Positions 1-28,256 are shown, counted from the stretch's first letter. The stretch: DNA of 64,000 nucleotides from an uncultured Oscillospiraceae bacterium (GCA_964385605.1 CAYLPQ010000002.1:28611-92610), one strand, 5' to 3'. Translations and numbers: made by a program. The notes: generated by a model not told the origin, from the letters alone.

Positions 1-654
1 AATGATGTAAATATTGTCGGAATGTATAAAAAAGACGGTGAACTCAGTTTTGGCAGATGCAGCTGGAATACTCTTTCCGGAAAAATCTGTGACGACAGTG
101 TCATTGCCAGGTTTTTTGGTGAATACAAGTCTTCTGATGTAGATATGATATTTATGACAGGAAACCTTGAATCAATCTGTCAGCAGGAAAGCAGCTTCGG
201 AGTTGTGACGAGAGTCATCGCACAGAAAATGGATAACGGAGAGTTTGGTAAAAAGATAGTTGTTAATAATGGAAACAGCTATGTTTTAACTGATGAGGCA
301 GCCTGGGGAATAGAGGAAAATACCATTATAAGCTACGGAAACGGTGCAGCTTTCGGTAGTAACGAAGTTTGTATTTTAAGCTCACTTCAGCTTGACGGAA
401 AACTCTATGACTGGGTCGGTCTAAAAAATCAGGATATAGAAATGAAGATTGGTACAGTAGAGAAAATAGATGAAAAAAGAGTTTATTTTACTGACGGTAC
501 AGCTCATTTTATAAACCGTTCCGAGCCTTTGTTTTTCAGTGTGTCAGATGACGGAATTTTGACAGGCGGAAGCTATATGGATAACCTTGAGGGAAAAGAT
601 ATAGTATATGCCGCAGATAACAGTTTAGTTTATGTAATATTTTATCAAGAATAA
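1..654 (+). CDS. 3' end of a larger secreted/surface protein gene entering from upstream (partial)
   Basis: The frame of ORF 22..654 stays open back to nt 1 (NDVNIVG precedes the first Met). No RBS precedes nt 22. The beta-rich tail ending VYVIFYQE resembles the tail of the SLH protein at 21354..23984 (ending TDIIIIKY). Confidence 0.5.
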   Translation, partial: NDVNIVGMYKKDGELSFGRCSWNTLSGKICDDSVIARFFGEYKSSDVDMIFMTGNLESICQQESSFGVVTRVIAQKMDNGEFGKKIVVNNGNSYVLTDEAAWGIEENTIISYGNGAAFGSNEVCILSSLQLDGKLYDWVGLKNQDIEMKIGTVEKIDEKRVYFTDGTAHFINRSEPLFFSVSDDGILTGGSYMDNLEGKDIVYAADNSLVYVIFYQE

Positions 655-664
655 AAATCCCATA

Positions 665-705: not shown

Positions 706-1821
706 ATGGATATCCGGTTATTAATTGCAGACGATAACGCAATACAGATCGACAGTATACTGTTGTACGTAGACTGGAAAGCCCTTGGAGTTACGCAAAT
801 AAAAACAGCTTCTGATGGAGAGCAATGCTATGAAATAGCAAAAGAATTTTTGCCGCACATTGTTATTGCCGATATAGAGATGCCGCGTATGGACGGTATG
901 GAACTGGCAGCCAAACTTAAAGAGTTTGACAAAAATATTAATCTTATATTTATAACTTGTCACGAAAATTTCAAATATGCACAACAGGCAATAGCGCTTG
1001 GTGTAGCCGCATATATTCTTAAACCTATATCTTACGACGAAATAGGTGAAGTGGCGAGAGACATTATTTTTAAAATAGAAGAAGAAAAAGAAAAAGAAGA
1101 ACACGAAATCCTGTTTTCAAGAAAACAGAGAGAAATAGAAAAGGATTTCTATGAGTTTTTTGATGAATACAACAGACTTGACGTCTTGAAAATATATGAT
1201 GCGTTTATAGAGCTTTTAAATGAAGAAAACGTAGATGTTGTAACATATCTGAAAGAACATCATTTCAGATATCTTGAGGAACAGTCATTTGCATACACGA
1301 AGTATATGTGTTATACTATGATAAATGCTATACAGCTTGTTGCAAAGGTTAAGAATATTGACCTTGACGATTTGTTCGGGCAAGGAGTGATATGGGATAA
1401 ACTGGCTATGTTTACAGATAAGGACGACATTGTAAACTGGCTTGCTAATTTTATGCAGATGGTATTTTTGCATATTAATCAGAACGAAAAAACATCCTAT
1501 AAAAAAGTAGCCCACGATATTAAAAATGTCATTGATACCGACCTTTATGAAATAAGTAATATTTCACATATTTCAGAAAAACTTCAGATAAGCTCAAGCT
1601 ATGCGGGAAGAATGTTCAAGAAGGCATACGGCATTACGATTTTCGATTATTTGTTTGAAAAAAGAATGCAGGAAGCGAAACGTCTTCTGGAGGATCCCTA
1701 TATGAAGGTTTATGAGATTGCAGAAAAGCTCGGCTACAGCAACAAGGCATATTTTTCCAGCACATTTCAAAAATACTGGGGAATGACTCCCAGTGAGTTC
1801 AGAAAAAGTAAGAGTGATTAA
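706..1821 (+). CDS. Two-component response regulator, receiver + AraC-type HTH (YesN-like)
   Basis: N-terminal receiver motifs (LLIADDN, IADIEMPRMDG, ILKP). C-terminal AraC HTH (KVYEIAEKLGYSNKAYFSSTFQKYWGMTPSEFR). RBS AAAGGAGAG lies upstream. Confidence 0.9.
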   Translation: MDIRLLIADDNAIQIDSILLYVDWKALGVTQIKTASDGEQCYEIAKEFLPHIVIADIEMPRMDGMELAAKLKEFDKNINLIFITCHENFKYAQQAIALGVAAYILKPISYDEIGEVARDIIFKIEEEKEKEEHEILFSRKQREIEKDFYEFFDEYNRLDVLKIYDAFIELLNEENVDVVTYLKEHHFRYLEEQSFAYTKYMCYTMINAIQLVAKVKNIDLDDLFGQGVIWDKLAMFTDKDDIVNWLANFMQMVFLHINQNEKTSYKKVAHDIKNVIDTDLYEISNISHISEKLQISSSYAGRMFKKAYGITIFDYLFEKRMQEAKRLLEDPYMKVYEIAEKLGYSNKAYFSSTFQKYWGMTPSEFRKSKSD

Positions 1822-1823
1822 AA

Positions 1824-3419
1824 ATGTTTAAGGAAAAAAGTCTTATCAGGCATATACTGATGAATGTATTTATGGTTACAATTGTAATTGTAGCTGTTGT
1901 TTTGGTTGTAGTCTGGTGCATTATGTGTAACAGCTACTCGGACAGGATTGAAACTTTAATTCAGTCATCGGTATCCAATAAAGCGGAGGAACTGCAGTTT
2001 GAACTGGAAAAACAGATAAATAAGACTGAACATATAATCAGCAACCTTGAGATTATTGAAAAACTTGATGTAGAGTATACAGACGGATATGAGTTATTAA
2101 GTTTTATAAATGAACTTAATACGTTTGTTGATGCACTGGAATATGAAGATGAGATCGAGCACGAGCCTGTTCTTATATATACGAAGAACTCAACCCTTGT
2201 GGAAAGTGCTTATTTAAGAAACATTGACAGACTTGAAAAAAGTGCACAGATACTTAAGTATTTCAGTGATGAGAAGGAAATTTTTTATCGTGACGGAAAA
2301 ATATATGAAGATTTTCGTGGAAGACAGTACATAGTAATTTACAGATACCTTCCTTTGAAAAATGAATGTGTTATAGAAATAAAGCTTTATTTTGACGGTA
2401 ATATAGATGACAGCGAATATATTGACAGCTGTGAGCTTTTTAGCGGGGATTTTGATGCTGCGAAAAGAAAACACGTGGTGACAGAACCTGTTTTTGAGAC
2501 TTTTTATCTGCAGGCTCAAATCCCTATGCGAAGACTCTATTTGAGATATTTGCTGTATTTTATGCAATTGCTTCTTTTTGCATTACTGTTTCTGACGGTG
2601 GCATACTTCCTTGCATTAACATCCATAAAGCACGCAATATCGGATATTATGATTCTGGTTGAGCAGATTGACAGCGAAGAATTTTTGCTTGAAGACGCAC
2701 GAGAAATCAAATGGGCCGAGCTAAAGAAAATTCAAAACAGTATCTTTTCTTTAAACAGACAAATTTATGAAATGAATCGGGATAAGTATGAAAGTCAGTT
2801 GCTTCAAAAAAAGCTTGAAATAGAAAACCTCAATCTGAAGATTAATCCCCATCTTCTGTACAATTCTCTTTCTGTAATAAAAATGGGAGCTTTTAAGAAA
2901 AGCGACCGTGAAACAGAAAAGGTTGTAGACCTTCTGGTTGATTACTACAGATTAATGCTTAACAAAGACGAAGAAAAAATCAGATTAGGACAGGAACTTG
3001 AATATCTGGAAAAATACATCAAAATCCATGAAATATCAAAAAAGATTAACTACGATGTGGAAGTGGATATTTCAAGTGAAGCATATGATGTTATGATTCC
3101 GCACCTTATTTTACAGCCAATTGTGGAAAATTCAGTATTTCACGGTCTGGGAAAAGATGTGGAAAGTCCATCAATATCATTTTCTGTAAAATATGACAAT
3201 GAGGTTCTTGTTATTGAAATATGTGACAACGGAACGGGTATTCCAAAAAATAAGGTTGAAAAAATGAACAAGAAGGAAGAACTCGGATACGGATTGAGAA
3301 ATGTATTTTTCCGTCTGGATTTTTATTACGGAGAGAATTATTCGCTGAAATTTGTGTCTGAAGAAAATAAAGGCACTTGTGTGATTTTGACATTAAAGGG
3401 AGGAACAATTGATGAGTAA
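1824..3419 (+). CDS. Sensor histidine kinase (YesM-like, His_kinase/HATPase_c)
   Basis: Starts 3 nt after the regulator stop. An N-terminal TM helix, a ~220-aa external region and a second TM helix (LLLFALLFLTVAYFLAL) are visible. H-box region LKINPHLLYNSLSVI. ATPase motifs EICDNGTGIP and GYGLRNV. Confidence 0.9.
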   Translation: MFKEKSLIRHILMNVFMVTIVIVAVVLVVVWCIMCNSYSDRIETLIQSSVSNKAEELQFELEKQINKTEHIISNLEIIEKLDVEYTDGYELLSFINELNTFVDALEYEDEIEHEPVLIYTKNSTLVESAYLRNIDRLEKSAQILKYFSDEKEIFYRDGKIYEDFRGRQYIVIYRYLPLKNECVIEIKLYFDGNIDDSEYIDSCELFSGDFDAAKRKHVVTEPVFETFYLQAQIPMRRLYLRYLLYFMQLLLFALLFLTVAYFLALTSIKHAISDIMILVEQIDSEEFLLEDAREIKWAELKKIQNSIFSLNRQIYEMNRDKYESQLLQKKLEIENLNLKINPHLLYNSLSVIKMGAFKKSDRETEKVVDLLVDYYRLMLNKDEEKIRLGQELEYLEKYIKIHEISKKINYDVEVDISSEAYDVMIPHLILQPIVENSVFHGLGKDVESPSISFSVKYDNEVLVIEICDNGTGIPKNKVEKMNKKEELGYGLRNVFFRLDFYYGENYSLKFVSEENKGTCVILTLKGGTIDE

Positions 3420-4686
3420 ACTGAAGGTAGTGCTTATAGGTGCGGGAAACCGTGGAACAACATATACGGATATTATGGCAGAAAACCCGGATAAATACGA
3501 GGTTGTTGCCGTTGCAGAGCCCATTGTGAGCAGACGTGAGGAAATACAAAAAAAGCATAATATTAAAGAAGATTTGTGCTTTGATGACTGGCATCCTCTG
3601 TTTGAAAAAGGAAAAATTGCGGATATGGCGGTCATAGCTACGATGGACCAACAGCATTTTGAGCCTGCAATTGCGGCTATTGAGCTTGGCTATGATATTC
3701 TTCTTGAAAAGCCTGTTTCCCCCGACCCGCAGGAGTGTCATATAATTTCGCAAAAGGCAGAAGAAAAAGGCGTAAAAATAGTAGTGTGCCATGTGCTTCG
3801 TTACACACCTCTTTTTATGATGCTTAAGGATATAATAGACAGCGGAAGAATAGGAAATGTAATATCAGTTAATCACGAGGAATGTGTAGGAAATGTTCAT
3901 CAGAGTCATAGCTTTGTCAGAGGCAACTGGGGCAACAGTGGACGCAGCTCCTGTATGCTTTTACAGAAATCCTGCCATGATATGGATATATTGCAGTGGC
4001 TTTTAGGCAAGCAGTGCAAAAAGGTACACTCGTTTGGGACACTTTCGCATTTCAGGGAGGAAAATGCTCCCGCGGGGGCTCCGGACTACTGTATCGAAGG
4101 TTGCCCGGAGAGTGAAAAATGTCCGTATAATGCGGTAAAGCTGTATCTTGAAGACAAAGAGAATGACTGGTTCCGTACTACGTCCACAAGAGAAGCCGAT
4201 CCCACAGACGAAATGGTGGAGAAGGCTATCCGTACAACTCAATACGGCAAATGCGTATATAAGTGTGATAATGATGTCGTAGATCATCAGACGGTTAATT
4301 TGCTCTTTGAGGATGATGTGACGGTAACCTTTACTATGAATGCGTTTAACAAGGGTGGAAGATTCATTCATATTATGGGAACAAAGGGTGAAATACATGC
4401 CTCTACGGAGGATGATGCTCCGATTGAGATATATGACTTTGAAACAAAAGAAACTACTCAGATACCCATGACCGGTGCAGATGGAATTGCAGGCGGTCAC
4501 GGTGGCGGTGATATAGGAATTATATCAGCATTGCACGCATATTTTACAGGAGAATATACAGGTAAATCAATTTCAACAATTGCGGATTCCTGTAATAATC
4601 ATCTGATTGTATTTGCGGCGGAGGAATCAAGAAATAGTAGTAGTGTTATTGATTTTGATGAATACGTAAAAAGTCTTGAAAAATGA
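3412..4686 (+). CDS. Gfo/Idh/MocA family oxidoreductase
   Basis: N-terminal Rossmann fingerprint VVLIGAGNRGTTY and an EKP motif (LLEKPVSP). RBS GGGAGG lies 9 nt before the ATG at 3412. The start overlaps the kinase stop at 3419. Confidence 0.85.
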   Translation: MSKLKVVLIGAGNRGTTYTDIMAENPDKYEVVAVAEPIVSRREEIQKKHNIKEDLCFDDWHPLFEKGKIADMAVIATMDQQHFEPAIAAIELGYDILLEKPVSPDPQECHIISQKAEEKGVKIVVCHVLRYTPLFMMLKDIIDSGRIGNVISVNHEECVGNVHQSHSFVRGNWGNSGRSSCMLLQKSCHDMDILQWLLGKQCKKVHSFGTLSHFREENAPAGAPDYCIEGCPESEKCPYNAVKLYLEDKENDWFRTTSTREADPTDEMVEKAIRTTQYGKCVYKCDNDVVDHQTVNLLFEDDVTVTFTMNAFNKGGRFIHIMGTKGEIHASTEDDAPIEIYDFETKETTQIPMTGADGIAGGHGGGDIGIISALHAYFTGEYTGKSISTIADSCNNHLIVFAAEESRNSSSVIDFDEYVKSLEK

Positions 4687-4948: not shown

Positions 4949-5953
4949 ATGAGATGGGCAGTTTTACTTCACCTGGGAAGAAATATGTGGGGTGATTTAA
5001 AGGCACAAAAGGAAATGCACTTTGACCGTGATCTTTGGAATAAGGCTGTTGACAAATGCGCAGAGTGTGGAGTGGATACAATCATCCTTGACGTGGGCGA
5101 GGGTGTAAGATATAAATCACATCCCGAAATCGGTATTCCCGGTTCCTGGGAGCCTGAAGAAATTACAGCGGAGGTAAAAAGACTCCGCAAAATGGGTATC
5201 GCACTTGTCCCTAAACTGAACTTCTCAACAGTACATGATGCGTGGCTTGGCATTTACGAAAGAATGGTGTCGACCCCTGTTTACTATCAGGTGTGTAAGG
5301 ACCTGATTGAAGAAGCATATGAGATGTTTGATAAGCCTGAATTTATACATATCGGTATGGATGAGGAAACTCCCCGTCACGCTGATGACGAGGCTTACAG
5401 CTATGTGGCACTCCGTCTCGGTGATTTGTGGATAAAGGACTGTAACTATCTTATTGACTGCGTAAAGGCAACCGGTGCCAAGTGTCATATGTGGCAGAGT
5501 ACCTTTGTACATAATGAAAAGGCTTACGATGCGATTCCCAATGATGTAGTTGTCGGTTCGTCCCATTACTATGCACACAATAAGGAAAAGTGGCATAAGA
5601 TTTCTGACCAGTCCGATAGGGAAAAGGAATATTACGCAACTCGTTTTGTGCAGAGATACGGATATTCAATTGAGTATATAGAGGAAGACCCTGTAGTTGA
5701 AATTAAAATGAAGGGCAGAAAGAAGCTTTTTGAAAAAGGCTTCCCCGTTGCAATCGTTACAACAAATATCTTTATCAAGGATAACGAAATGGACGAAGTA
5801 GAGCATATCAAGGCGACATATACGCAAGAGGAAATTGATAACCTTGACGGTTTTGTTGCCTGCCCATGGAAATTTATGGACTCTGATAAGGAAGACGCAA
5901 TTATCGAGCAGATAGAATTAATCGGCAAAGCAAAGAGAAAGTATTACAATTAA
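4949..5953 (+). CDS. Cytoplasmic TIM-barrel-like protein, putative GH20-like glycoside hydrolase
   Basis: No signal peptide. The motif order RWAVLLHLGRNMW ... VDTIILDVGEG ... NFSTVHDAWL ... FIHIGMDEE parallels the GH20 layout, including the H-x-G-x-D-E catalytic signature. Assignment is by eye only. Confidence 0.4.
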   Translation: MRWAVLLHLGRNMWGDLKAQKEMHFDRDLWNKAVDKCAECGVDTIILDVGEGVRYKSHPEIGIPGSWEPEEITAEVKRLRKMGIALVPKLNFSTVHDAWLGIYERMVSTPVYYQVCKDLIEEAYEMFDKPEFIHIGMDEETPRHADDEAYSYVALRLGDLWIKDCNYLIDCVKATGAKCHMWQSTFVHNEKAYDAIPNDVVVGSSHYYAHNKEKWHKISDQSDREKEYYATRFVQRYGYSIEYIEEDPVVEIKMKGRKKLFEKGFPVAIVTTNIFIKDNEMDEVEHIKATYTQEEIDNLDGFVACPWKFMDSDKEDAIIEQIELIGKAKRKYYN

Positions 5954-16700: not shown

Positions 16701-16812
16701 TCTTAACGATGCAATGCTTGACGGAAGCCTTTCAAGTAATTTCGGAAGAACAGTTGACCTTAAGCTCTTCGGCGATGGCGACCTTCACATTAAGTCAGTG
16801 AGAGTTTATTAA
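13738..16812 (+). CDS. Secreted multidomain protein: acidic E/P/T-rich linker, aBig Ig-like modules, LamG-like, FN3, two C-terminal WKT beta-sandwich modules
   Basis: ATG 13738 after GGAGG. Signal peptide ending VAFA|EE. Acidic tract at nt 13810-14022. FN3 at about 15607-15870 (DLEWTRA...YNIYRDG...YTYEVTTVD). No anchor motif at the C-terminus. Confidence 0.7.
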   Translation: MKRRIALLMALVFAFICTVPVAFAEETVVEEAITEEEIPAEEPAEETPTEETIEESTEEDIPEQEPAEEEIPVIEDATEEKTEDEVILDKEKEEEMTLQAVTSDVQAVADAITAEMLTSGREPAHAVTKNLDMSLEGDITLPDGVTVEFSSSDTSVIGNDGTVVRAIGEDKTVTVTVTVSKDGSDDVTKELVFTVLNMETAVLYSNNYYYPDLVNTEFVGYDSGSNKIITAIPEFNYSSTTDNTGHVSSHLYSYADGYGVNVKRLEGTGVCYLDSFTNVSASEQTKLIHSATINISDWGSQVKRLDIELFGTTTKVVSMGKVEINEATGSITVVPTSGSSFERIYVSKRLSLNTDYKLDFVVDFENNKFEFFVNGENYFEGIEFGILDAFEPAIQKANYYFFRTAAGATFTIKDTIVTGAFDLSDPQVALDMIDESCFTYTNSSKITEDFELVLPANVETLCELYDFDVTLTSSKTSAIAIDGYSATVTKDEEKQEVTLTVEVASADKSVTKTFDVKVHNLAAVNMIEAEVPVITDNGENKDISVDVCCENLIEGETSAPVYLFAVRKDKASGKIDAVAVDSCTLTIGASDTLTASLPDGGDAYDYKVYVWDSFESQTSLINQPPAEPTDLVVTGTTTGTADLEWTRADDDRKAVSSYNIYRDGNLVGSTTDTSYTGGQLDFGATYTYEVTTVDDSGLESEYKASVAATAATVPTITYVSGDPEGAPNATQVNSENIACSWAGNNTYLWTAPTEADGRMCHETTLYVRKNADGSTQDIHSFFHTKSPFTYIDGDTRDIVIEITYFDEKPAENTGTETISVAYQGGSVSTQFKDTGYWKTAVFEINNAKFTEAALTNYTEKYNIRFNSTTPGLKIYQTTVVNADEYVRPAASVRMTDALTLRDILIYREDGQIAYDVVNDVNCLKLESGNYLEMDVETIAASQREVSVEICYYDEGNENIFLEYAGESGSGMEIISREGSGEWKTALINLNDAMLDGSLSSNFGRTVDLKLFGDGDLHIKSVRVY

Positions 16813-19622: not shown

Positions 19623-19632
19623 GGAGGAGATA

Positions 19633-21339: not shown

Positions 21340-21353
21340 GAGGTGGATACAGT

Positions 21354-23984
21354 ATGAAAAAAATATTATCACTTATATTGATTCTCGGAATTTTTCTGTC
21401 AGTATTCACCGTACAGGCGGCTGACGAGGTAGTAGAGATTGTCGTTCCGGAAAAACATCTGAACAACGTAACAATGCTTAAAGCACTCGGTATTGGTGAT
21501 TATACAGAAAAACTCCATACCGAAAAGATAACCCGCGGAGAATTTGCAGGAATTATAGCAGCACTTCTTGATGCGGATGAAATTGCAGGTGCGATACCTT
21601 TTGCAGATGTTGACAAAAACAGTGAATACTACAATGCCATATCTGTTGTGTATACATACGGAATTATGAACGGGGTGAGTTCAGTAAGATTCGCTCCCGA
21701 TGAATGTATCACTTATGAGCAGGCTATAAAATGTGTAGTATCTGTTCTCGGATACGCACCCATTGCAGGAGCTTTCCCCGACGGATATATGAATATTGCC
21801 ATAAGCATACGTTTGCTTAACGGTCTCGGAACAAACAGTGACAATTTCACATGGGAAAAGGCTGTTCAGCTTGTTGTAAATTCTTTTGATATTGCTGTTA
21901 TGGTTATTCACGGCATTGGCACAGAATCAACTCTGTACCGTCCGTCAGACAGTCAGACTATTCTTGGTGTATATCACGGTATATTCAAGTCAGAGGGAAA
22001 AGTGACAGATAACGGTATTACAACCGTTACGGGTGATCCTATCCGTGCAAAAGAATTTATGATAGTAAACAATATTGCAGGTTTTGTCGAAGATGACTCC
22101 ATGCGTGAGTATATCGGGCAGAACGTTGAATTTTACTATCAGGTAGCTGATGACGGAACAAGAATACTTTATTTTCTTCCTGAATCATTTTCCGATGATG
22201 TTCTTGTGATTAATGCAGATGACCTTATAACTGACAGCGAAAGCTTTACAAAGACAAATGTCGTATATAAAGAGAATGGCAAGAAGCAGGAAGCAAGGGT
22301 TCATCAGTATGCAGAAATGATTTACAACGGAAAGAACTTTGCAACATTCCTTGTAGATGATATGAAGATAGTTGCAGGTACTCTTAAGCTTATTGATAAT
22401 GATGACGATAATGTTTACGACCTTATTATCGCCGATGAGTACAAAGACATTGTTGTAGCGGCAATCGATCAGACAGAGGAGATTATCACTGATACAAAGG
22501 GTGTTTCTTACTCCTACGGTGGTAAGGTTCGCTCATATTTCTATGACAAGAACTTTGCGCCCATACTTGTTTCTTCAATTATCAACGGAAACGTAATTTC
22601 TCTGTTTGAAAGTAAGGACGGCGAATACAGAAAATTTGTCGTTTCCAGTGATATTATAACAGGTATAGTTGACGGATATGAAAACGACGGTGAGGTTGAA
22701 AGAATTTCCGTTGACGGTGTTTATCGCAGATATTCACATTCATTGCTTGACAATATTGCCAACGGATATGAAGGTGCTTTCGTTCCCGAAATGGGTATGA
22801 ACCTTAAGATGGCGCTTAACTATGAAGGCAAAATCTCCGTAATAGATACAAATGTAAGAGATTTTATGTATGCATACTGTCTTGGTATGGAGCCTATGAC
22901 CGGTGCGCTTAAGAACTCGGTTCAGCTTAAAGTTGTAACAGAAAAGGGTGACGAGGTCATTCTTGATGTAGCAAAGAAGGTTGAAATCAACGGCGCGACA
23001 AAGGAGCCTGCTGATGTTCTCAACATAGCTGATTTCTATGATAAGGAAGGCGAATTTGTTCCCCAACTTATAAGAATGAAGGTTAATTCCAAGGGTGAAC
23101 TCAAGATGATTACGACGGCAAAGACTGTTGAATCAAACCTCGGATTTACCGATAAAGACCAGTTCACACTAGACTACTCTGCAAGTTCTGTAAGCTCATC
23201 CGGTAATGCCTACGGTGGTTGGTATGGAACAGACAGTAATACAATCTTCTTCAGACTCAGAAGAGACGATGCATATTCAGATCCGGAGGTTTCTATCGTA
23301 AAATCTATCCCTGCAGCAGGTACTAATGCGAAAATGTATGACCTCGATGCATTCTGGAATGCAGGCGCAGTTGTTGTGAAAGACAGCGACAGCTTCTCAA
23401 ACTATATGCGTCAGGTTCTTATGGTAACAAAGGTGTATACGGGCTTTGATGAACACAAAAATCCCGTTAGAATGATAGAAGGGTATCAACAGGGTAATCA
23501 GTGGAAGTATGCAGAGGCGGAAGAGGGTGTTATCGACCACTTTATTCCCGAAGGCATAAAGATTGGTGACATCGTTATGATACAGGTTGATGATGCGAAA
23601 AATATAAGAACCATCGATAAGCTTATCTCGCTTTCTGAAAAGCAGGAACCCAAAATGGAGGCGCTTGTAGGAAGCGGTACAACACCTGACCTTGCGTTTA
23701 TGTATGGTTATGCGTGTGAAAAGAATTCAAGCTACATGGTGGCAACTCTTGATAACTATGCACTGAAATCTGCCGAAAACTTCTTTGTAAAGAGTGTTTC
23801 AGCAAGTGCAAATATCTTTGTATACGATGTTAAAGACAAGACATTCAGGAAGAGCAAGCTTCTAGACCTTCCCATTAATGCGGTAAGACAGGGAGATATG
23901 TATAACATCATAAACAAAGACGAAATGATTTTCATGACCTACAATCGTAGAGCTGCAACCGATATTATTATAATTAAATATTAA
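21354..23984 (+). CDS. Surface protein with N-terminal SLH domains and a ~700-aa uncharacterised beta-rich body
   Basis: ATG 21354 follows GAGAGGTGG. Signal peptide ending VQA|AD. SLH-like stretches ITRGEFAGIIAALL and FADVDKNSEYYNAISVVYTYGIMNGVSSVRFAPDECITYEQAIKCVV. Confidence 0.75.
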   Translation: MKKILSLILILGIFLSVFTVQAADEVVEIVVPEKHLNNVTMLKALGIGDYTEKLHTEKITRGEFAGIIAALLDADEIAGAIPFADVDKNSEYYNAISVVYTYGIMNGVSSVRFAPDECITYEQAIKCVVSVLGYAPIAGAFPDGYMNIAISIRLLNGLGTNSDNFTWEKAVQLVVNSFDIAVMVIHGIGTESTLYRPSDSQTILGVYHGIFKSEGKVTDNGITTVTGDPIRAKEFMIVNNIAGFVEDDSMREYIGQNVEFYYQVADDGTRILYFLPESFSDDVLVINADDLITDSESFTKTNVVYKENGKKQEARVHQYAEMIYNGKNFATFLVDDMKIVAGTLKLIDNDDDNVYDLIIADEYKDIVVAAIDQTEEIITDTKGVSYSYGGKVRSYFYDKNFAPILVSSIINGNVISLFESKDGEYRKFVVSSDIITGIVDGYENDGEVERISVDGVYRRYSHSLLDNIANGYEGAFVPEMGMNLKMALNYEGKISVIDTNVRDFMYAYCLGMEPMTGALKNSVQLKVVTEKGDEVILDVAKKVEINGATKEPADVLNIADFYDKEGEFVPQLIRMKVNSKGELKMITTAKTVESNLGFTDKDQFTLDYSASSVSSSGNAYGGWYGTDSNTIFFRLRRDDAYSDPEVSIVKSIPAAGTNAKMYDLDAFWNAGAVVVKDSDSFSNYMRQVLMVTKVYTGFDEHKNPVRMIEGYQQGNQWKYAEAEEGVIDHFIPEGIKIGDIVMIQVDDAKNIRTIDKLISLSEKQEPKMEALVGSGTTPDLAFMYGYACEKNSSYMVATLDNYALKSAENFFVKSVSASANIFVYDVKDKTFRKSKLLDLPINAVRQGDMYNIINKDEMIFMTYNRRAATDIIIIKY

Positions 23985-24146: not shown

Positions 24147-27100
24147 TTGATAAAAAGATTTTTTGCTGCTTTTGTAGCAATTGTTATGGCTCTTGCCGTA
24201 TGCCCTGTTCTTACAGGTGCGGAAACTGCAGATATTCAGTCTTTATATGACTCCATCACTGCAGAATCTGTTACGCAGAACGAGCTTGAAGATTTCGTTA
24301 CAAAGGACCTTGTGCTTCCCGCTGCTCCCGAAGGAATTACAATTTCATGGGAGTCAAGCGACGAATCAGCAATTACTAAAGACGGTAAGGTAACCCGTGC
24401 CGATGTAGTGGATAAGACTGTAACACTTACTGCTACAATTTCTGACGGAAGTCAGACACTTACGAAAGAAATTAATCTTAATGTTGTAGCAAATGCAACA
24501 AACGTATTTTATCAGAATAACTTCCATTATCCCCAACTTGTGGGAACGTCTACAGTTGTAACTTCGGATATCGGCTGGACAGACAACGGTAGCGGTCAGA
24601 CAACCGTTGAAAAGTCTATCAAGACTGATGACGATGGTAACCATTATCTTTATATGGACCATGCTTCAACAGCCGGCTACCCCCAGATTGGTCCGACCTT
24701 CAGCGCTAAGGGCAGCAAAATTACAATCCGTATGGATATATCGGTAGATGCAACAAACGGAACAACAAAACTCATTGACCTCTGGCTCGGAATGGTTAAG
24801 GGTACAAGCATAGAGTATTCCAAACCCCGTATGATTACTGACGCAAACAATGTAACTTCTATAAGCGGAATTAATAATCTTAAGTTTGATACTCTTCCCA
24901 GCAGAACAGAGCTTTATATTGAACTTGATATGGAAAACCTTACTATGAGAGCGAAAAAGGGGCAGGATGGCGAATGGTCGAACTCAATGAATATGCCCAG
25001 TGCTAACACCGAATGGACAGGCGAGATTAAATCATTGCTTTTCAGAAGAGGTTCGGGTAGTTCTCCGGCAGCTGTTCTTGAAGTAGACAATATGATTGTT
25101 TACGAAGAAAGAGACAGAGCATCTTACGCAGACAGCCTTGATGTTGACAAGACAATTGCTGTACTTGATTTATCAAAAATGACAAGTGAGGATATTAATA
25201 ATATCACACGGGACCTTGACCTTAACTACGCAGAGCTTCAGGCGGCAAACACAGCTAACGGCACAACAGTTACTTTCGAAAGCTCCAACCCTGACGTTAT
25301 CGAAATCGCAGACGGAAAGGGTATTGTAAAACGTGGCTATGAGGCACAGGAGGTTACACTTACTGCGACAGTTTCAAAGGGGAGCTATTCTGATTCTACA
25401 AAGAAATTCATTTTCACAGTTCCCGCAAGTGAAGCGGCTACAGAAATAAAGAATGCACTTGCATTCTCCAATATGTCAAATCAGTCAAACTTTGCTGTGA
25501 CAAATGACCTTAATCTTTCATACACTGCAATCGCAGATGTAAAGGCGAAATATGGTGCAGAAATCACTTTTGAATCATCTGATGATTCTGTTATACAAGT
25601 CGTTAACGGTACAGGCATTATTAACCGCGGTGATGCAGAAAAGACTGCTACTCTTACAGCAACGGCAGTAGTTGACGGTGTAACATTTACACGTGAGCAT
25701 AATATCGTTGTTCCGGCAACAAGCACTTATGTGTTCAAGTCAGAGGATTTCGGCTATCCGGAATATGAGGGAGAGAAGATTTCGGAAATTGGCTGGGTTT
25801 GTGAAACAGACCCCACACGTTTCACAACCACCATTGAGCAGATAGACGGCGATTACTACATTGAAGGTTATCTTCCCCAGACGGACACCGGTACACGCAG
25901 ACCTTCATTCACGTTTCAGAATGACCGTGATGTGAAGAAAATCAGTGTGGAATATACAGCTACATATATGGAAGACAGTGGCGTAAATGCAATTTACGAG
26001 TTTGAATTCTACGGCGGAACAACAGGCAGTGATCTTGACACGAGTAAAACAATTGCAAGAATTCAGTCTACAGGTACATCTATGGCTATATACGGTCATA
26101 CCGAGGAAAGCACTGCGTATCACGGTGCAAAGGCCTGCACTGCAACGAGAGCGACACGCGGCAATTCTGACAGATACCGTTTTGACTTCGACTTTGTAAA
26201 TCAAGGTTACGATTTTTACCTTAACGGTGAGAGAAAGAACACTGACCTTATTCCCTTTGCATCTGGGATGAACTACAACAGCTTCAAAAAGTTCAACTTT
26301 GCAGCATACCGTGAGGCAGTTGGCTCAAAGATTCTCATTGACGACTTTGTAATCCAGGCAAGAGATGTAGAGTTTACACAGGACTATGTATCAGAGGCAG
26401 GTCAGCCCCTTACAGTGGAAGTTTCATTTAAAGATACAAACTACAACGATGCAGTTCATATGTATGTAACAAGCGATTATGACGAGGAATATAATCTTCG
26501 TCAGCTTTTCACAGTTAATAACGCAGGCGGTGAACTTGTAAAAAATGTTATCTTTGACTACAGAGACGCATACCTTGTAAATAAAGAAAGCGGTGCAAAA
26601 ACACAGCTTATCGGTCTTCCCACTGCAGACGAAACAGCGCCTCCGCTGTTTCCCCAGACATATCTTGGCGGTAACCACGGGGTATCCTTCGGCGTCCGTG
26701 TGACAAGTGCAAACCATGGAAAGACATACAACGACATCGGTTCTGTATGGCTTGATGATGCAGGTGTACAGTGGACACTTGTGAGAGTAAACAGTGAAAG
26801 CGAGCTTGTATTCCTTTCAGAAACTGAAAAGAAAAACGGTACATGGGCATTTGTAAAGAATATAACAGGGACAACACTTACTTATGATGAATCTGCAGAC
26901 AACAACTTCGCACTTAATGAAACTGCAATCACAATAGATGCAATTGCAGAAACAAGTATGCAACTTCAGCCTGCAATCGGCAACCGTGTGCAGAAAATGT
27001 ATATCTACCGTGATGGTGAATCTTCTGAATATGTAGAGGTTGACTCTATCAGGGAGGGCTTCACGGTTAACTGCAGTAAGGTTATTCTTGATGAAACCTA

Positions 27101-28256
27101 TGATATTATGGACCCCTCAAAGATAGGTTATCACCTTCGCGAGTATCGTCCCGACGGAGGTTATACAGCTCCTGCAGATATAGCAGAGGGTGGTACACCT
27201 ATTATGCGTTATCATCAGACAATCACTATCCACGAAGACGGTGACGTTACAATAGAACACGACCACGAAATGCTTGAAACCTTCAAATCATTCAGCTACT
27301 ACGGATACCAGTACTATGAAAAGGCTGACGTTTTTGGCGGTGGTGTATTCAGATATATGCCCGGTGTTAAGGGTATTACATCAGGGGACAGATTCTACGA
27401 CTTCTCAAAGCCCTTTGATATGACAAACGATGCACTTCCCGGAACATATATAGCATCAAAGGATTTGTGGGCAAACGAGAACCTTGCACCTGACAGAACA
27501 ATCGAGTATTACCGCGATACAGACGGCAAGAACCGTATGGCATTCGTTGCAGGCTTTGTGCCGATTCTCGATGCGGCACCCGATGTGAGAACGGAAAACA
27601 TCTCATCAGCTCTTACAATGTATAACAGAACAGGTATGAAGGTTTATCCCATGCTTGTAAATAATGCAAGTAAGTTCGCCCAGGAAGGTGCTAAAATTCA
27701 GGGTGTCGTATTCCGCCATTATGATAATCTTGACCAGAGTACAGATGCGGTTACTGCTTATGACGTTGAGTACAAGGATGATGTTTACTACTACGTTGAC
27801 TTTATGGAAGACGCAGAAAACTTTACACTTGACCTTTCAAAGAAGACTGTTGCAAGCGATTATGAGCTTGTTTACAAGACTGACGATGTTACATACAGCA
27901 TAGACGGAAACAAACTCATTGTAAGCGGTAAACAATCGGGCTATATCTGCGTTAAGGGTAAGCGCAGTGCAGAAATTGCAACTGTTGCTTATGACAATGC
28001 TACTCATAAACTTGCTGTATGGCTCAATAACAGAGCGGAAACACAGGTAACAGGTGACATCGTTATAGCAGGCTTTAACGGTGATAAGTGCAAGAGTATT
28101 TCTGTAAAGAAAAATGTTACTCTTACAGCAGATGATTTCACAAGACTTGATATCGAAGATTTCGATGACAGCGGTGTAACAGATATTAAAGTATTCCTTG
28201 TGCATAAGGGAACACTTACTCCAGTCAACTTTGCTAAAATTATCAGTGTAGAATAA
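24147..28256 (+). CDS. Secreted 1369-aa protein: 3x aBig Ig-like, 2x LamG-like, ~500-aa unassigned domain, C-terminal beta-sandwich
   Basis: TTG start 8 nt after AAGGAG. Signal peptide ending VLTGA|ET. Ig-like modules end VTLTATISDGS, VTLTATVSKGS and ATLTATAVVDG. Nothing recognisable by eye in the region encoded by about nt 26364-27900. Confidence 0.7.
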   Translation: MIKRFFAAFVAIVMALAVCPVLTGAETADIQSLYDSITAESVTQNELEDFVTKDLVLPAAPEGITISWESSDESAITKDGKVTRADVVDKTVTLTATISDGSQTLTKEINLNVVANATNVFYQNNFHYPQLVGTSTVVTSDIGWTDNGSGQTTVEKSIKTDDDGNHYLYMDHASTAGYPQIGPTFSAKGSKITIRMDISVDATNGTTKLIDLWLGMVKGTSIEYSKPRMITDANNVTSISGINNLKFDTLPSRTELYIELDMENLTMRAKKGQDGEWSNSMNMPSANTEWTGEIKSLLFRRGSGSSPAAVLEVDNMIVYEERDRASYADSLDVDKTIAVLDLSKMTSEDINNITRDLDLNYAELQAANTANGTTVTFESSNPDVIEIADGKGIVKRGYEAQEVTLTATVSKGSYSDSTKKFIFTVPASEAATEIKNALAFSNMSNQSNFAVTNDLNLSYTAIADVKAKYGAEITFESSDDSVIQVVNGTGIINRGDAEKTATLTATAVVDGVTFTREHNIVVPATSTYVFKSEDFGYPEYEGEKISEIGWVCETDPTRFTTTIEQIDGDYYIEGYLPQTDTGTRRPSFTFQNDRDVKKISVEYTATYMEDSGVNAIYEFEFYGGTTGSDLDTSKTIARIQSTGTSMAIYGHTEESTAYHGAKACTATRATRGNSDRYRFDFDFVNQGYDFYLNGERKNTDLIPFASGMNYNSFKKFNFAAYREAVGSKILIDDFVIQARDVEFTQDYVSEAGQPLTVEVSFKDTNYNDAVHMYVTSDYDEEYNLRQLFTVNNAGGELVKNVIFDYRDAYLVNKESGAKTQLIGLPTADETAPPLFPQTYLGGNHGVSFGVRVTSANHGKTYNDIGSVWLDDAGVQWTLVRVNSESELVFLSETEKKNGTWAFVKNITGTTLTYDESADNNFALNETAITIDAIAETSMQLQPAIGNRVQKMYIYRDGESSEYVEVDSIREGFTVNCSKVILDETYDIMDPSKIGYHLREYRPDGGYTAPADIAEGGTPIMRYHQTITIHEDGDVTIEHDHEMLETFKSFSYYGYQYYEKADVFGGGVFRYMPGVKGITSGDRFYDFSKPFDMTNDALPGTYIASKDLWANENLAPDRTIEYYRDTDGKNRMAFVAGFVPILDAAPDVRTENISSALTMYNRTGMKVYPMLVNNASKFAQEGAKIQGVVFRHYDNLDQSTDAVTAYDVEYKDDVYYYVDFMEDAENFTLDLSKKTVASDYELVYKTDDVTYSIDGNKLIVSGKQSGYICVKGKRSAEIATVAYDNATHKLAVWLNNRAETQVTGDIVIAGFNGDKCKSISVKKNVTLTADDFTRLDIEDFDDSGVTDIKVFLVHKGTLTPVNFAKIISVE

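What the first reader, a model, noticed from the sequence alone, without database searches (positions are those of the whole stretch)
1..28256. Regulator-dense, SLH-anchored secreted-protein locus with almost no recognisable catalytic content
Seven large signal-peptide ORFs sit on one strand: a partial one, then 1055, 1024, 921, 568, 876 and 1369 aa. They are built from repeated aBig-type Ig-like and LamG-like modules. Only two carry wall anchors: three C-terminal SLH repeats in the 19633 protein and N-terminal SLH repeats in the 21354 protein. The four largest proteins end without LPXTG, dockerin, cohesin or SLH motifs that I can see. Enzyme-like parts are limited to one metallophosphoesterase module, one PL22-like propeller, a cytoplasmic GH20-like protein and a Gfo/Idh/MocA oxidoreductase. 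The locus has three sensing devices (a YesN/YesM-type pair, a 760-aa transmembrane AraC regulator, and an SBP lipoprotein) but no ABC permease, ATPase or PTS gene. This does not match the usual Gram-positive polysaccharide-utilisation layout of SBP, two permeases and glycoside hydrolases. It may be an uncharacterised cell-surface apparatus for a phosphorylated or uronic-acid-containing polymer, with the SLH proteins acting as scaffolds for the non-anchored ones.
Basis: partly seen in the sequence, partly recalled or inferred. Interest (0 to 1): 0.7.

Follow-up and report, generated by a model that had tools for sequence, protein, structure and literature searches.

The report
Surface operon for acidic sugar polymers
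This is a conserved gene cluster of an uncultured gut Clostridia bacterium that most likely breaks down an acidic (uronic-acid) polysaccharide at the cell surface, using enzyme domains too divergent for standard annotation, one of which is an unnamed family also found in phage tail proteins.

Summary
The ORFs, signal peptides, aBig_2 modules, SLH repeats, regulators and the lack of any permease are all present as described.

"Almost no catalytic content" is true only at Pfam level.
- J's central domain is a full-length homologue of PL22 oligogalacturonate lyase (hhalign 98%, E 2e-13). It keeps the catalytic His and Arg and three of the four Mn ligands.
It belongs to an unannotated family of 607 clusters. 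The model (pLDDT 87) has a galactose-mutarotase-like supersandwich fold. Eleven polar residues are near-invariant, including in phage tail-region homologues.
- The "LamG" modules model as a ConA-like lectin fold.
- SBP H is closest to the uronate-oligosaccharide binders Smon0123 and AlgQ.
- Protein E gives weak but consistent GH20 hits.

H-I-J-K-L-M is syntenic at 57-75% identity in two other Clostridia MAGs, one of which also shows the start of G, so the grouping is not a chance juxtaposition.

The scaffold idea is not supported. There is no cohesin or dockerin. M-like genes stand alone elsewhere. L resembles an S-layer-type protein of Monoglobus pectinilyticus.

Best reading: an inducible surface depolymerisation operon for a uronate-containing glycan, with the exact substrate unknown. 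It is a new variant of a Gram-positive polysaccharide-utilisation locus. Interest is moderate.

The parts
1..654 (+). A: C-terminal 217 aa of a protein cut by the window edge; function unknown
   Evidence: Open frame from base 1. No Pfam or NCBIfam hit even at E<=10.
706..1821 (+). B: response regulator with an AraC-type HTH (YesN-like)
   Evidence: Response_reg plus HTH_18/HTH_AraC.
1824..3419 (+). C: membrane histidine kinase (YesM-like) with two TM segments flanking a ~200-aa outside loop
   Evidence: His_kinase PF06580 plus HATPase_c. TM segments at aa 5-23 and 238-256.
3409..4686 (+). D: cytoplasmic Gfo/Idh/MocA oxidoreductase; its start overlaps the end of C
   Evidence: GFO_IDH_MocA N- and C-terminal domains. 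No hydrophobic segment.
4949..5953 (+). E: cytoplasmic GH20-like TIM-barrel candidate with motif HIGMDE at aa 134-139
   Evidence: phmmer to the small GH20 structures 9FYL/9FYM, E 2e-4. tblastn to an annotated 'family 20 glycosylhydrolase', E 1e-6 over aa 41-207. No Pfam hit. Motif position.
6100..9267 (+). F: secreted 1055-aa protein: aBig_2, ConA-like module (nt 6487-7179), aBig_2, ConA-like module (nt 7417-8109), metallophosphoesterase (nt 8176-8763), C-terminal ~100 aa unassigned
   Evidence: Pfam aBig_2 x2 and Metallophos. ConA-like modules by HMM. Metallophos motifs GD(699)IQ, GD(735)VTED, GNHD(766-769), H841, GH(886-887). E 1e-23 to metallophosphoesterase domains of large secreted proteins.
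9484..11871 (-). G: transmembrane AraC-family regulator (795-aa maximal ORF, start uncertain), divergent from H
   Evidence: HTH_18/HTH_AraC at the C-terminus. TM segments at aa 46-64 and 329-347. N-terminus of an orthologue is present upstream of H in L008, 69% identity.
12062..13618 (+). H: lipoprotein solute-binding protein of the Smon0123/AlgQ subfamily, with no permease partner in the window
   Evidence: PDB phmmer: 5XS8/5GUB E 2e-50, AlgQ1/2 E 1e-31 to 1e-33. Smon0123 ligand residues Gln405 and Tyr409 are kept; Trp284 is not. A promoter-like site lies at 11989-12017.
13723..16812 (+). I: secreted 1029-aa protein: acidic linker, aBig_2, ConA-like module (nt 14335-15009), aBig_2, fn3, then two copies of a ~122-aa C-terminal module (nt 16006-16371 and 16441-16809). 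No catalytic candidate was found.
   Evidence: Pfam. HMMs.
16857..19622 (+). J: secreted 921-aa protein: N-terminal region, PL22-like beta-propeller lyase domain (nt 18039-19226), and one copy of the I-type C-terminal module (nt 19215-19607)
   Evidence: hhalign against PL22: 98%, E 2.2e-13, 333 columns. R590, H625, Q730, H734 and H736 align with YeOGL R217, H242, Q350, H353 and H355. Six of eight weak tblastn hits are annotated oligogalacturonate lyase.
19594..21339 (+). K: secreted protein with three C-terminal SLH repeats (nt ~20791-21336); the N-terminal ~390 aa are unassigned
   Evidence: SLH E 1.4e-39, three stretches.
21336..23984 (+). L: secreted protein with N-terminal SLH region (nt ~21453-21905) and a ~690-aa body, the architecture of an S-layer protein
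   Evidence: SLH at aa 88-131. 25.6% identity over 738 aa to a 959-aa SLH protein of Monoglobus pectinilyticus that lies beside TagA-like, MltG and RodA genes. It is the least conserved gene of the operon, at 57%.
24147..28256 (+). M: secreted 1369-aa protein: aBig_2, ConA-like module (nt 24498-25121), aBig_2 x2, ConA-like module (nt 25725-26375), an unannotated ~500-aa supersandwich domain (nt 26436-27965), and a C-terminal ~95 aa
   Evidence: Pfam aBig_2 x3. The domain family has 607 representative clusters. AF2 model pLDDT 87. Foldseek matches OpgG, galactose mutarotase and GH38. Conserved D828 H844 H857 D863 D870 Y985 R1117 R1148 K1165 Y1167 D1218.
28269..28301 (.). 15-bp-stem hairpin between the convergent M and YpsA genes; probable terminator marking the 3' end of the operon

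Best explanation
The locus is a substrate-inducible set of cell-surface enzymes for depolymerising a uronic-acid-containing glycan. It is built from divergent or unclassified carbohydrate-active domains, not from a non-catalytic 'apparatus'.

**Shown**
- H-I-J-K-L-M form one conserved same-strand block, with G divergent upstream in the window and in one relative.
- J carries a full-length PL22-type lyase domain that keeps the catalytic His and Arg and three of the four Mn ligands.
- M carries a ~500-aa galactose-mutarotase-like supersandwich domain with eleven near-invariant polar residues.
- F carries a metallophosphoesterase domain with all five motifs present.
- F, I and M carry aBig_2 plus ConA-like lectin modules.
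- K and L carry SLH repeats.
- H belongs to the SBP subfamily that binds uronate oligosaccharides.

**Inferred**
1. The lectin and Ig modules hold the polymer.
2. M acts as a depolymerase, probably a lyase or hydrolase. J then removes or cleaves terminal uronate units by metal-assisted beta-elimination at the cell surface.
3. F removes a phosphate or phosphodiester substituent, or has an unrelated esterase role.
4. K and L are wall-bound. L is probably an S-layer-type protein.
5. H binds the released acidic oligosaccharide. It either signals to the transmembrane AraC G or the kinase C, as the orphan SBP CuaD does in Ruminiclostridium cellulolyticum, or it feeds permeases encoded elsewhere.
6. 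D and E finish the imported products in the cytoplasm.

The exact substrate is not known. A pectic or rhamnogalacturonan-like polymer is the leading guess.
For: **Synteny**
- H-M are in the same order at 57-75% identity in two other Clostridia MAGs (L007, L008). The N-terminus of G is present in L008.
- No strong + strand terminator lies inside H-M. A 15-bp hairpin follows M, and a promoter-like site lies before H.

**J**
- hhalign gives 98% probability, E 2.2e-13, over 333 columns against PL22. MAFFT places R590, H625 (HESWCPDG against HEFWVPDG), Q730, H734 and H736 in register with YeOGL R217, H242, Q350, H353 and H355.
- Six of eight tblastn hits are annotated oligogalacturonate lyase, and two of them cover about 90% of the domain.

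**M**
- The family has 607 clusters and no Pfam, PHROG or PDB sequence match.
- The model has pLDDT 87 and pTM 0.89.
- The fold matches OpgG/OpgD (GH186), galactose mutarotase, and the GH38, LacZ and lyase supersandwiches.
- Eleven polar residues are conserved in at least 86% of 143 members. All eleven are kept in phage homologues at 23-27% identity.
- Contexts of M-like genes: GH88-type, GH78, GDSL esterase and Gfo/Idh/MocA; Gfo/Idh/MocA and AraC; a fucose/rhamnose-type microcompartment locus.

**H**
- E 2e-50 to Smon0123 and about 1e-32 to AlgQ1/2. Their ligands are described in PMC5430744.

**Other points**
- A signalling-only SBP has a precedent in PMC10384115.
- The regulator set YesM/N plus a long AraC parallels the B. 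subtilis rhamnogalacturonan yes operon (PMC2788870).
- E: GH20 hits.
Against: - No activity has been measured for any protein.
- J scores below the Pfam PL22 gathering threshold (24.4 against 30 bits).
- A three-orthologue profile of J found nothing in the PDB.
- The fourth Mn ligand (YeOGL H287) does not align in register. The nearest His is H684, four residues away.
- Known PL22 enzymes are cytoplasmic, as far as I recall, and act on short oligogalacturonides.
- M's fold matches have low TM-scores (0.2-0.3). A conserved polar site could bind a ligand rather than catalyse a reaction.
- No GH88/GH105, KduI/KduD or uronate isomerase genes occur in the window.
- F (phosphoesterase) and E (GH20-like) do not fit a simple pectin model.
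- Smon0123's stacking residue Trp284 is not conserved in H.
- Synteny of the upstream part (A-F) could not be tested.
Confidence: 0.55

Rival explanations
1. Same type of machinery, different target. The locus degrades anionic cell-envelope glycopolymers of other bacteria, such as teichuronic or teichoic acids or capsules. M would act like a phage depolymerase or receptor-binding domain. F would cut phosphodiester links. E would remove HexNAc.
For: - The M domain occurs in a phage protein next to Phage-tail_3 and a lysin (P0004), and in a 943-aa protein of Staphylococcus Twortvirinae phages that follows two 'tail fiber' genes.
- BFVD gives a viral homologue (TMq 0.76, E 6e-26) and a 'distal tail protein' hit.
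- The polar site is fully conserved in the phage copies.
- F has a metallophosphoesterase domain.
- E is GH20-like.
- H belongs to an anionic-oligosaccharide SBP subfamily.
Against: - The genomic contexts of bacterial M-like genes point to plant- or diet-type glycan genes (GH78, GH88-type, GDSL esterase, a fucose/rhamnose microcompartment).
- PL22 is a pectin-pathway family.
- P0003 sits beside the capsid gene, not in the tail module.
- No lysin or peptidoglycan hydrolase lies in the locus.
Confidence: 0.15
2. One reading: a cellulosome-like surface apparatus in which the SLH proteins K and L dock and scaffold the non-anchored proteins F, I, J and M.
For: - Only K and L have SLH anchors.
- I (two copies) and J (one copy) share a ~122-aa C-terminal module of unknown function that could be a docking module.
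- K's N-terminal ~390 aa are unassigned.
- K and L are co-transcribed with the enzymes and syntenic with them.
- A distant locus (L009) also groups three SLH proteins with large ConA-like proteins.
Against: - No cohesin or dockerin is found by Pfam or by motif search.
- F and M lack the I/J module.
- M-like genes occur alone with an AraC regulator in other genomes.
- L's homologue in Monoglobus lies in a cell-envelope neighbourhood (TagA-like, MltG, RodA genes) with no enzyme genes nearby.
- A possible cryptic SLH segment in J is not significant (hhalign 7%).
Confidence: 0.12
3. Mainly a cell-envelope and adhesin locus. K and L are S-layer components, and F, I and M are lectin/Ig adhesins that bind host or dietary glycans without degrading them. 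The enzyme-like domains would be degenerate or serve only for binding.
For: - Most of the residues in these proteins lie in Ig-like and ConA-like lectin modules.
- I has no catalytic candidate.
- L has an S-layer-like architecture, is the least conserved gene of the operon, and is homologous to the Monoglobus SLH protein.
Against: - J keeps the PL22 catalytic and metal-binding residues.
- M's eleven polar residues are conserved down to 23% identity.
- All F Metallophos motifs are present.
- The locus has sugar-type regulators, an SBP and two cytoplasmic sugar enzymes.
Confidence: 0.1
4. A chance juxtaposition of unrelated secreted-protein genes.
For: - Synteny of the upstream half (A-F) could not be examined.
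- M-like genes occur in many different contexts.
Against: - H-M keep the same order and strand at 57-75% identity in two other species, and G is present upstream of H in one of them.
- Intergenic gaps are short and the genes share one terminator.
Confidence: 0.03

Closest known systems
PL22 oligogalacturonate lyase (Ogl; YeOGL PDB 3PE7, VPA0088 PDB 3C5M)
   Same: - The J domain aligns over the whole PL22 length (hhalign 98%).
- It keeps R217, H242, E243, W245, D248, N291, Q350, H353 and H355 in register.
   Different: - J is secreted and multi-modular (921 aa, with a signal peptide and flanking modules). Known Ogl enzymes, as far as I recall, are ~390-aa single-domain cytoplasmic proteins.
- Identity is only ~21%, and the Pfam score is below the gathering threshold.
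- The H287 ligand is not in register.
Bacillus subtilis yes (rhamnogalacturonan) operon: YesM/N, YesO-P-Q, YesS, YesT-Z (PMC2788870)
   Same: - The regulatory kit is the same: a PF06580 kinase with a receiver-AraC regulator, a long (~760-aa) AraC-family activator and an SBP.
- A ConA-like module resembles YesU (1OQ1 is among the best fold hits).
- The target is a pectic uronate polymer.
   Different: - No YesPQ permeases.
- No PL11, GH105 or CE12 enzymes.
- The enzymes here are PL22-like and of an unnamed family.
- Homology of G to YesS was not tested.
- SLH anchoring is absent from the B. subtilis system.
Gram-positive PUL (gpPUL) as defined by Sheridan et al. 2016 (PMC5320581)
   Same: Degradative enzymes and regulators are clustered, and an AraC regulator and an HK/RR(AraC) pair are typical of gpPULs.
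   Different: The defining transport system is missing. Only an orphan SBP is present.
Galactose-mutarotase-like supersandwich enzymes: GH186 OpgG/OpgD beta-1,2-glucanases (PMC10514313) and aldose 1-epimerase
   Same: These are the best fold matches for the M domain (Foldseek E 4e-6 to 1e-4, probability ~1). In both, the supersandwich itself forms the active site.
   Different: - No sequence similarity: no Pfam MdoG or Aldose_epim hit, and no PDB hit with a family profile.
- TM-scores are only 0.2-0.3.
- The conserved residue set is different.
Signalling-only SBP plus sensor systems (CuaD-CuaSR of Ruminiclostridium cellulolyticum, PMC10384115)
   Same: An SBP encoded next to regulators, with no permease of its own.
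   Different: - Here the adjacent partner is a one-component transmembrane AraC, not the kinase, which lies 9 kb away.
- No functional data exist.
SLH-anchored S-layer proteins (Sap/EA1-type architecture) and the SLH protein WP_320691001.1 of Monoglobus pectinilyticus
   Same: - L has a signal peptide, an N-terminal SLH region and a ~700-aa body.
- It shares 25.6% identity over 738 aa with the Monoglobus protein.
   Different: - L is embedded in an enzyme operon rather than a cell-envelope neighbourhood.
- Lattice formation is untested.

Membership tests
PL22 (oligogalacturonate lyase) | Homology over the whole ~385-aa propeller domain | tested here: met
   - hhalign of A7 against A6: 98% probability, E 2.2e-13, J domain positions 7-381 against PL22 14-389.
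- tblastn hits to annotated PL22 genes cover 89-93% of the domain.
PL22 (oligogalacturonate lyase) | Catalytic His242 and Arg217 (YeOGL numbering; roles recalled from Abbott et al. 2010; both invariant in alignment A6) | tested here: met
   H625 and R590 are in register in both hhalign and MAFFT, and invariant in the three orthologues.
PL22 (oligogalacturonate lyase) | Mn2+ ligands His287, Gln350, His353 and His355 | tested here: inconclusive
   Q730, H734 and H736 are in register. H287 aligns with Gly/Ser, and the nearest invariant His (H684, in 'CNHPC') lies four residues upstream in an insertion.
PL22 (oligogalacturonate lyase) | Score at or above the Pfam PF14583 gathering threshold | tested here: not met
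   24.4 bits against a cutoff of 30, with only profile positions 34-124 matched.
PL22 (oligogalacturonate lyase) | Beta-elimination activity on oligogalacturonides | not testable with these tools
   Needs an enzyme assay.
Gram-positive PUL (Sheridan 2016) | At least one polysaccharide-degrading enzyme | tested here: inconclusive
   The candidates (J PL22-like, M, E GH20-like) are inferred, not classified by CAZy-type models.
Gram-positive PUL (Sheridan 2016) | A carbohydrate transport system | tested here: not met
   Only SBP H is present. No permease, ATPase or PTS component was found among the ORFs scanned in the 64-kb window.
Gram-positive PUL (Sheridan 2016) | A transcriptional regulator | tested here: met
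   B/C and G.
Cellulosome-like scaffold system | Cohesin and dockerin modules | tested here: not met
   No Pfam cohesin or dockerin hit, and no dockerin-like Ca-binding motif.
SLH-anchored wall proteins | SLH repeats (PF00395) | tested here: met
   K has three repeats (E 1.4e-39). L has one clear repeat (E 2e-8) with degenerate flanks.
GH20 | Match to a GH20 catalytic-domain model, and the D-E catalytic pair | tested here: inconclusive
   - No Pfam hit even at E<=10.
- phmmer to 9FYL/9FYM gives E 2e-4 over aa 37-100.
- tblastn to an annotated GH20 gives E 1e-6 over aa 41-207.
- The motif H134-I-G-M-D138-E139 was seen by eye and resembles GH20 'HxGxDE' (from memory).
Calcineurin-like metallophosphoesterase | Pfam PF00149 above threshold, and the five metal-binding motifs | tested here: met
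   32.5 bits against 21.5. Motifs GD(699)IQ, GD(735)xxED, GNHD(766-769), H841 and GH(886-887) are present; the first has Q where DxH is usual.
GH186 / aldose-1-epimerase (galactose-mutarotase-like) | Sequence-family membership (Pfam MdoG or Aldose_epim) | tested here: not met
   M has no Pfam hit apart from aBig_2. The family profile finds nothing in the PDB.
GH186 / aldose-1-epimerase (galactose-mutarotase-like) | Supersandwich fold | tested here: inconclusive
   Foldseek probability is ~1 and E is 4e-6 to 1e-4, but TM-scores are 0.2-0.3 and rmsd is high.
Smon0123/AlgQ-type SBP | Sequence homology and conservation of the uronate-contacting residues | tested here: inconclusive
   E 2e-50 over ~455 aa. 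Gln405, Tyr409 and Ser287 are conserved, Trp413 is Tyr, and Trp284 and Glu410 are not conserved.
B. subtilis YesS-type regulator | Homology to YesS beyond the AraC HTH | not tested
   No YesS sequence was available. Only the length and architecture are similar.

The most novel reading that the evidence does not exclude
The ~500-aa domain of M founds a new carbohydrate-active enzyme family, either a lyase or a hydrolase. It would have a galactose-mutarotase-like supersandwich catalytic fold and a D/H/H/D/D/Y/R/R/K/Y/D active site. It would be shared between secreted enzymes of gut Clostridia and phage tail (depolymerase) proteins. J would be the first extracellular, multi-modular PL22-type lyase. 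Together they would define a previously unrecognised route for degrading an anionic glycan at a Gram-positive cell surface.
Probability: 0.35. Interest if true: 0.7.

Novelty: new variant of a known kind. Interest (0 to 1): 0.5.

Why it matters
Much of the glycan-degrading capacity of uncultured gut Clostridia is invisible to Pfam and dbCAN-type annotation. This locus gives two concrete, testable leads.

- **An unannotated domain family.** It has 607 clusters at 50% identity, a confident model, a sharply conserved polar site, and homologues in phage tail-region proteins. It is a candidate new CAZy family and a candidate phage depolymerase module.
- **A secreted PL22-type lyase.** This would extend a family known, as far as I recall, only from the cytoplasmic end of pectin catabolism to the cell surface.

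The locus also shows that an orphan uronate-type SBP next to a transmembrane AraC regulator can mark polysaccharide loci that contain no transporter.

Tried and rejected
**Searches that found nothing**
- The search for homologous proteins was nearly blind here. It returned 4 hits for the M domain, 3 with the family profile and 0 for the J propeller. The exhaustive representative search was needed instead.
- Two metagenome scans with J found nothing.
- The PDB sequence search returned nothing at E<=1 for M, or at E<=10 for the M family profile and the J orthologue profile. The F Metallophos region gave only one insignificant hit, E 0.13.
- PHROGs had no family for the M domain.
- tblastn of the M domain and of I's C-terminus against PLSDB found nothing.
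- A literature search for mutarotase-like phage receptor-binding domains found nothing. The Monoglobus genome paper is not held in the library.

- The exact sequence of regulator B is not on record, so the window could not be extended upstream.

**Ideas tested and dropped**
- A cryptic SLH triad in J aa 215-395: hhalign gives only 7% probability, so it is not supported.
- D being orthologous to the Gfo/Idh/MocA genes next to M-like genes elsewhere: identity is only 25%, which is generic family similarity.
- I first labelled 29969-31432 as prolyl-tRNA synthetase. The hits show it is glycyl-tRNA synthetase.

**Not established**
- A relationship of the M domain to PL4 rhamnogalacturonan lyase, which also has a supersandwich catalytic domain (from memory), was considered. 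No PL4 structure appeared among the top 50 fold hits.

Full report

Yes.
- partial A (1-654)
- F (6100-9267, 1055 aa)
- I (13723/13738-16812)
- J (16857-19622, 921 aa)
- K (19594/19633-21339)
- L (21336/21354-23984)
- M (24147-28256, 1369 aa)

The locus also holds regulator pair B/C (706-3419), oxidoreductase D (3409-4686), protein E (4949-5953), the minus-strand AraC regulator G (9484-11871) and lipoprotein H (12062-13618).

A hydropathy scan finds N-terminal hydrophobic segments in F, H, I, J, K, L and M. It finds two TM segments each in C and G, and none in D or E.

Pfam confirms the following:
- aBig_2 in F, I and M
- three C-terminal SLH repeats in K and an N-terminal SLH in L
- Metallophos in F
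- Gfo/Idh/MocA in D
- the YesN/YesM-type pair
- the AraC HTH of G

No LPXTG, dockerin or cohesin was found. Among the ORFs scanned there is no permease, ATPase or PTS gene. The ten ORFs sampled in the second half of the window are housekeeping genes: a transposase, PBP1 and fab genes.

**2. Is it a unit?**

A scan of GTDB species representatives with L returned two Clostridia MAGs, L007 and L008. In both, H, I, J, K, L and M follow one another in the same order and on the same strand. Identities are 74-75% (H), 67-71% (I), 74% (J), 68% (K), 57% (L) and 65-67% (M). In L008 the N-terminus of a G orthologue (69% identity) lies divergently upstream of H.

Intergenic gaps within H-M are 0-163 nt. 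No strong + strand terminator lies inside the block. A 15-bp hairpin sits between M and the convergent YpsA gene, and a promoter-like site precedes H.

Chance juxtaposition is therefore excluded for H-M, and G is seen with the block in one relative.

**3. What the 'non-catalytic' proteins contain**

*J.* The Pfam hit to PL22 is sub-threshold: 24.4 bits, covering only profile positions 34-124.
- A tblastn of the J propeller against PLSDB gave eight weak hits. Six are annotated 'oligogalacturonate lyase family protein', and two of them cover 89-93% of the query.
- I fetched three of these genes. I also read the YeOGL (3PE7) sequence from a PDB alignment and built a PL22 alignment (A6).
- hhalign of the J orthologue alignment (A7) against A6 gives 98% probability, E 2.2e-13, over 333 columns spanning the whole domain.
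- In both hhalign and MAFFT, J R590, H625, E626, W628, D631, N692, Q730, H734 and H736 align with YeOGL R217, H242, E243, W245, D248, N291, Q350, H353 and H355.
- From memory of Abbott et al. 2010, H242 is the base, R217 stabilises the intermediate, and H287, Q350, H353 and H355 bind Mn2+. All but Q350 are invariant in A6.
- Only H287 is out of register. An invariant His (H684, 'CNHPC') lies four residues upstream.

J is therefore a divergent but probably functional PL22-type lyase. Unlike known Ogl enzymes, it is secreted and flanked by extra modules.

*M.* Residues ~764-1273 have no Pfam, PHROG or PDB sequence match.
- An exhaustive HMMER search of 1.84 billion representatives finds 607 clusters at E<=1e-3. 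Many are standalone ~480-aa proteins, and others are fused to aBig_2, ConA-like, SLH or CBM35 modules.
- AlphaFold2 with 29 sequences gives an all-beta model with pLDDT 87 and pTM 0.89.
- Foldseek against the PDB returns OpgG/OpgD (GH186), galactose mutarotase, and the supersandwich domains of GH38, LacZ, copper amine oxidase and several polysaccharide lyases. Probability is ~1, but TM-scores are only 0.2-0.3. This is a galactose-mutarotase-like supersandwich with no close solved relative.
- Across 143 members, D828, H844, H857, D863, D870, Y985, R1117, R1148, K1165, Y1167 and D1218 are 86-100% conserved.
- The same eleven residues are all kept in phage homologues: P0003 (beside the capsid gene) and P0004 (between Phage-tail_3 and a lysozyme). 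Ten of eleven are kept in a 943-aa protein of Staphylococcus Twortvirinae phages that follows two 'tail fiber' genes.
- BFVD contains a viral homologue with TMq 0.76.

Such a constellation, kept at 23-27% identity, marks a functional site, most simply an active site.

*Contexts of bacterial M-like genes.*
- One sits with GH88-type (Pfam PF07470, which from memory also covers GH105), GH78, a GDSL esterase, Gfo/Idh/MocA, LacAB_rpiB and MFS genes.
- One sits with Gfo/Idh/MocA and an AraC regulator.
- One sits next to an Aldolase_II/Aldedh/BMC microcompartment locus of the fucose/rhamnose type.
- Several are single genes with a divergent AraC regulator.
- One forms a tandem pair.
- One standalone copy sits next to five DUF4874/DUF4832 genes.

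*ConA-like modules.* An HMM built from five window segments links F 130-360, F 440-670, I 205-429, M 118-325 and M 527-743 with the equivalent modules of M-like proteins. The AF2 model of M 527-743 (pLDDT 86.5) matches ConA-like lectin and glucanase folds at TMq ~0.6. These include a BT_1020 domain, calreticulin, B. subtilis YesU, ERGIC-53, legume lectins and PL7 lyases.

*F.* The Metallophos domain has all five motifs, with GDIQ in place of the usual GDxH. It matches, at E 1e-23, metallophosphoesterase domains embedded in large secreted multidomain proteins of rhizobia and haloarchaea. It has no solved relative.

*E.* Pfam gives no hit. phmmer finds the small GH20 enzymes 9FYL/9FYM (E 2e-4; PMC11776370). 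tblastn finds annotated GH20 genes (E 1e-6 over aa 41-207). The motif HIGMDE (aa 134-139) resembles the GH20 catalytic pair (by eye).

*H.* Its best PDB relatives are Smon0123 (E 2e-50), the SBP for unsaturated glycosaminoglycan disaccharides (PMC5430744), and then the alginate binders AlgQ1/AlgQ2. Part of the uronate-contacting set is kept (Gln405, Tyr409, Ser287). Trp284 is not.

*K, L and I.*
- L's ~690-aa body is homologous (25.6% over 738 aa) to a 959-aa SLH protein of Monoglobus pectinilyticus. That protein lies beside another SLH protein and TagA-like, MltG and RodA genes.
- L has the signal-peptide, SLH and large-body architecture of S-layer proteins, and it is the least conserved gene of the operon.
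- A distant L homologue (L009) again sits among SLH proteins and large ConA-like proteins.
- I has no catalytic candidate. I (two copies) and J (one copy) share a ~122-aa C-terminal module of unknown function.

**4. Most likely mechanism**

The best-supported reading is a substrate-inducible surface depolymerisation operon for a uronate-containing glycan.

| Component | Proposed role | Status |
|---|---|---|
| ConA-like and aBig_2 modules | bind the polymer | inferred |
| M | depolymerises the polymer | inferred from the conserved site, the fold and the contexts |
| J | performs metal-assisted beta-elimination on oligouronides | inferred from conserved PL22 residues |
| F | removes a phosphate ester or diester | weakly inferred |
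| K, L | wall-bound | SLH shown; role inferred |
| H | binds acidic products, then either signals to G or C or serves permeases encoded elsewhere | inferred; signalling precedent in PMC10384115, |
| D, E | act in the cytoplasm | inferred |

The regulator kit parallels the B. subtilis rhamnogalacturonan yes operon (PMC2788870). The PL22 link and the contexts of M-like genes lean towards a pectic or rhamnose-uronate polymer, but F and E do not fit neatly. I put 0.55 on the general model and roughly 0.3 on a pectic substrate.

**5. Rivals**

- **Anionic cell-wall polymers of other bacteria as the target (0.15).** This is favoured by the phage-tail homologues, F and E. The contexts of bacterial M-like genes count against it.
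There is no cohesin or dockerin. M-like genes occur alone elsewhere. L's relative sits in a cell-envelope context. The shared I/J module and K's unassigned N-terminus leave it open.
- **A purely adhesive or S-layer locus (0.10).** The conserved catalytic residues count against it.
- **Chance juxtaposition (0.03).** Synteny contradicts it.

**6. Comparison and novelty**

- J meets the homology and catalytic-residue tests for PL22. It fails the Pfam threshold and the usual cellular location.
- The locus fails the gpPUL definition because it has no transporter (PMC5320581).
- M is not a sequence member of GH186 or the aldose-epimerase family.

Overall this is a new variant of a known kind, a Gram-positive polysaccharide-utilisation locus. 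It contains one unannotated, potentially new enzyme family and an unusual extracellular PL22.

Interest is 0.5. The leads are worthwhile for CAZyme and phage-depolymerase discovery, but nothing is yet functional, and similar 'dark' loci are common in gut Clostridia.

The organism is an uncultured member of the Clostridia. The best GlyRS match is Monoglobus pectinilyticus at 75%, though other Clostridia score nearly as high.

Noticed in passing
window 29969-31432 (+): This is a class II aminoacyl-tRNA synthetase gene. tblastn hits are annotated glycine--tRNA ligase. The best match is Monoglobus pectinilyticus at 74.9%, but Peptoclostridium (73.8%) and Subdoligranulum (71%) are close, so the taxonomic placement stays loose.
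   Followed up: partly
window 29585-29824 (-): A cluster of three tRNA genes (Lys-CTT, Thr-GGT, Asp-GTC) lies between the YpsA-like gene and the GlyRS gene. No other Rfam family matches in the window.
   Followed up: yes
window 32785-34320 (-): A DDE transposase gene (DDE_Tnp_1_6 and DUF772) lies just beyond the locus.
   Followed up: no
window 45148-47015 (+); loci L013, L018, L019: The window has two tandem GNAT_C-domain genes. In three other Clostridia contigs, M-like genes are immediately followed by Antibiotic_NAT and NAT_N/GNAT_C genes. This recurring association is unexplained.
   Followed up: no
L024 (NZ_OY725740.1, 'plasmid 16' of Monoglobus pectinilyticus): This record is filed in PLSDB as a plasmid but carries the ribosomal-protein/secY/rpoA operon, rodA and mltG. 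It looks like a chromosomal contig mislabelled as a plasmid.
   Followed up: no
L002-L005 (phage contigs), gene at L003 10001-11578: A 525-aa homologue of the M domain with the full conserved polar site sits directly after the major capsid gene (Phage_cap_E) and before the head-tail genes. That is an odd position for a glycan-active domain.
   Followed up: partly
L010 689-7839 and L011: A standalone 485-aa M-family gene lies next to five tandem paralogues of DUF4874+DUF4832 proteins.
   Followed up: no
L023 1-9410: An M-like gene (P0007, 40% identity) lies directly downstream of a bacterial microcompartment locus with Aldolase_II, Aldedh, ADH, PTAC and BMC shell genes, the fucose/rhamnose type.
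   Followed up: no
L008 17064-20615: One of the two syntenic MAGs has an extra 1183-aa gene after M, with aBig_2 and a ConA-like module (a weak 3keto-disac_hyd hit). The window and L007 lack it.
   Followed up: partly
window 17499-18041 (J aa 215-395): This segment has SLH-like motifs by eye (TREQ...YTDV...ITQDEM) and aligns in register with K's SLH repeats, but hhalign probability is only 7%. It might be a degenerate wall-binding region in a 'non-anchored' protein.
   Followed up: yes
window 16006-16371, 16441-16809 (I) and 19215-19607 (J): A ~122-aa module (pattern ...ITYxDEG...GxWKT...) occurs twice at the C-terminus of I and once at the C-terminus of J. It has no Pfam match and no PLSDB match.
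   Followed up: partly
window 42832-44691: A divergent pair: a cupin-type AraC regulator and a xylose-isomerase-like TIM-barrel protein. This is another small sugar-related unit with no link to the locus.
   Followed up: no
window 11767-11871 (first 35 codons of the maximal G ORF): The tblastn match to the L008 orthologue starts at residue 5 of the maximal ORF.
   Followed up: no
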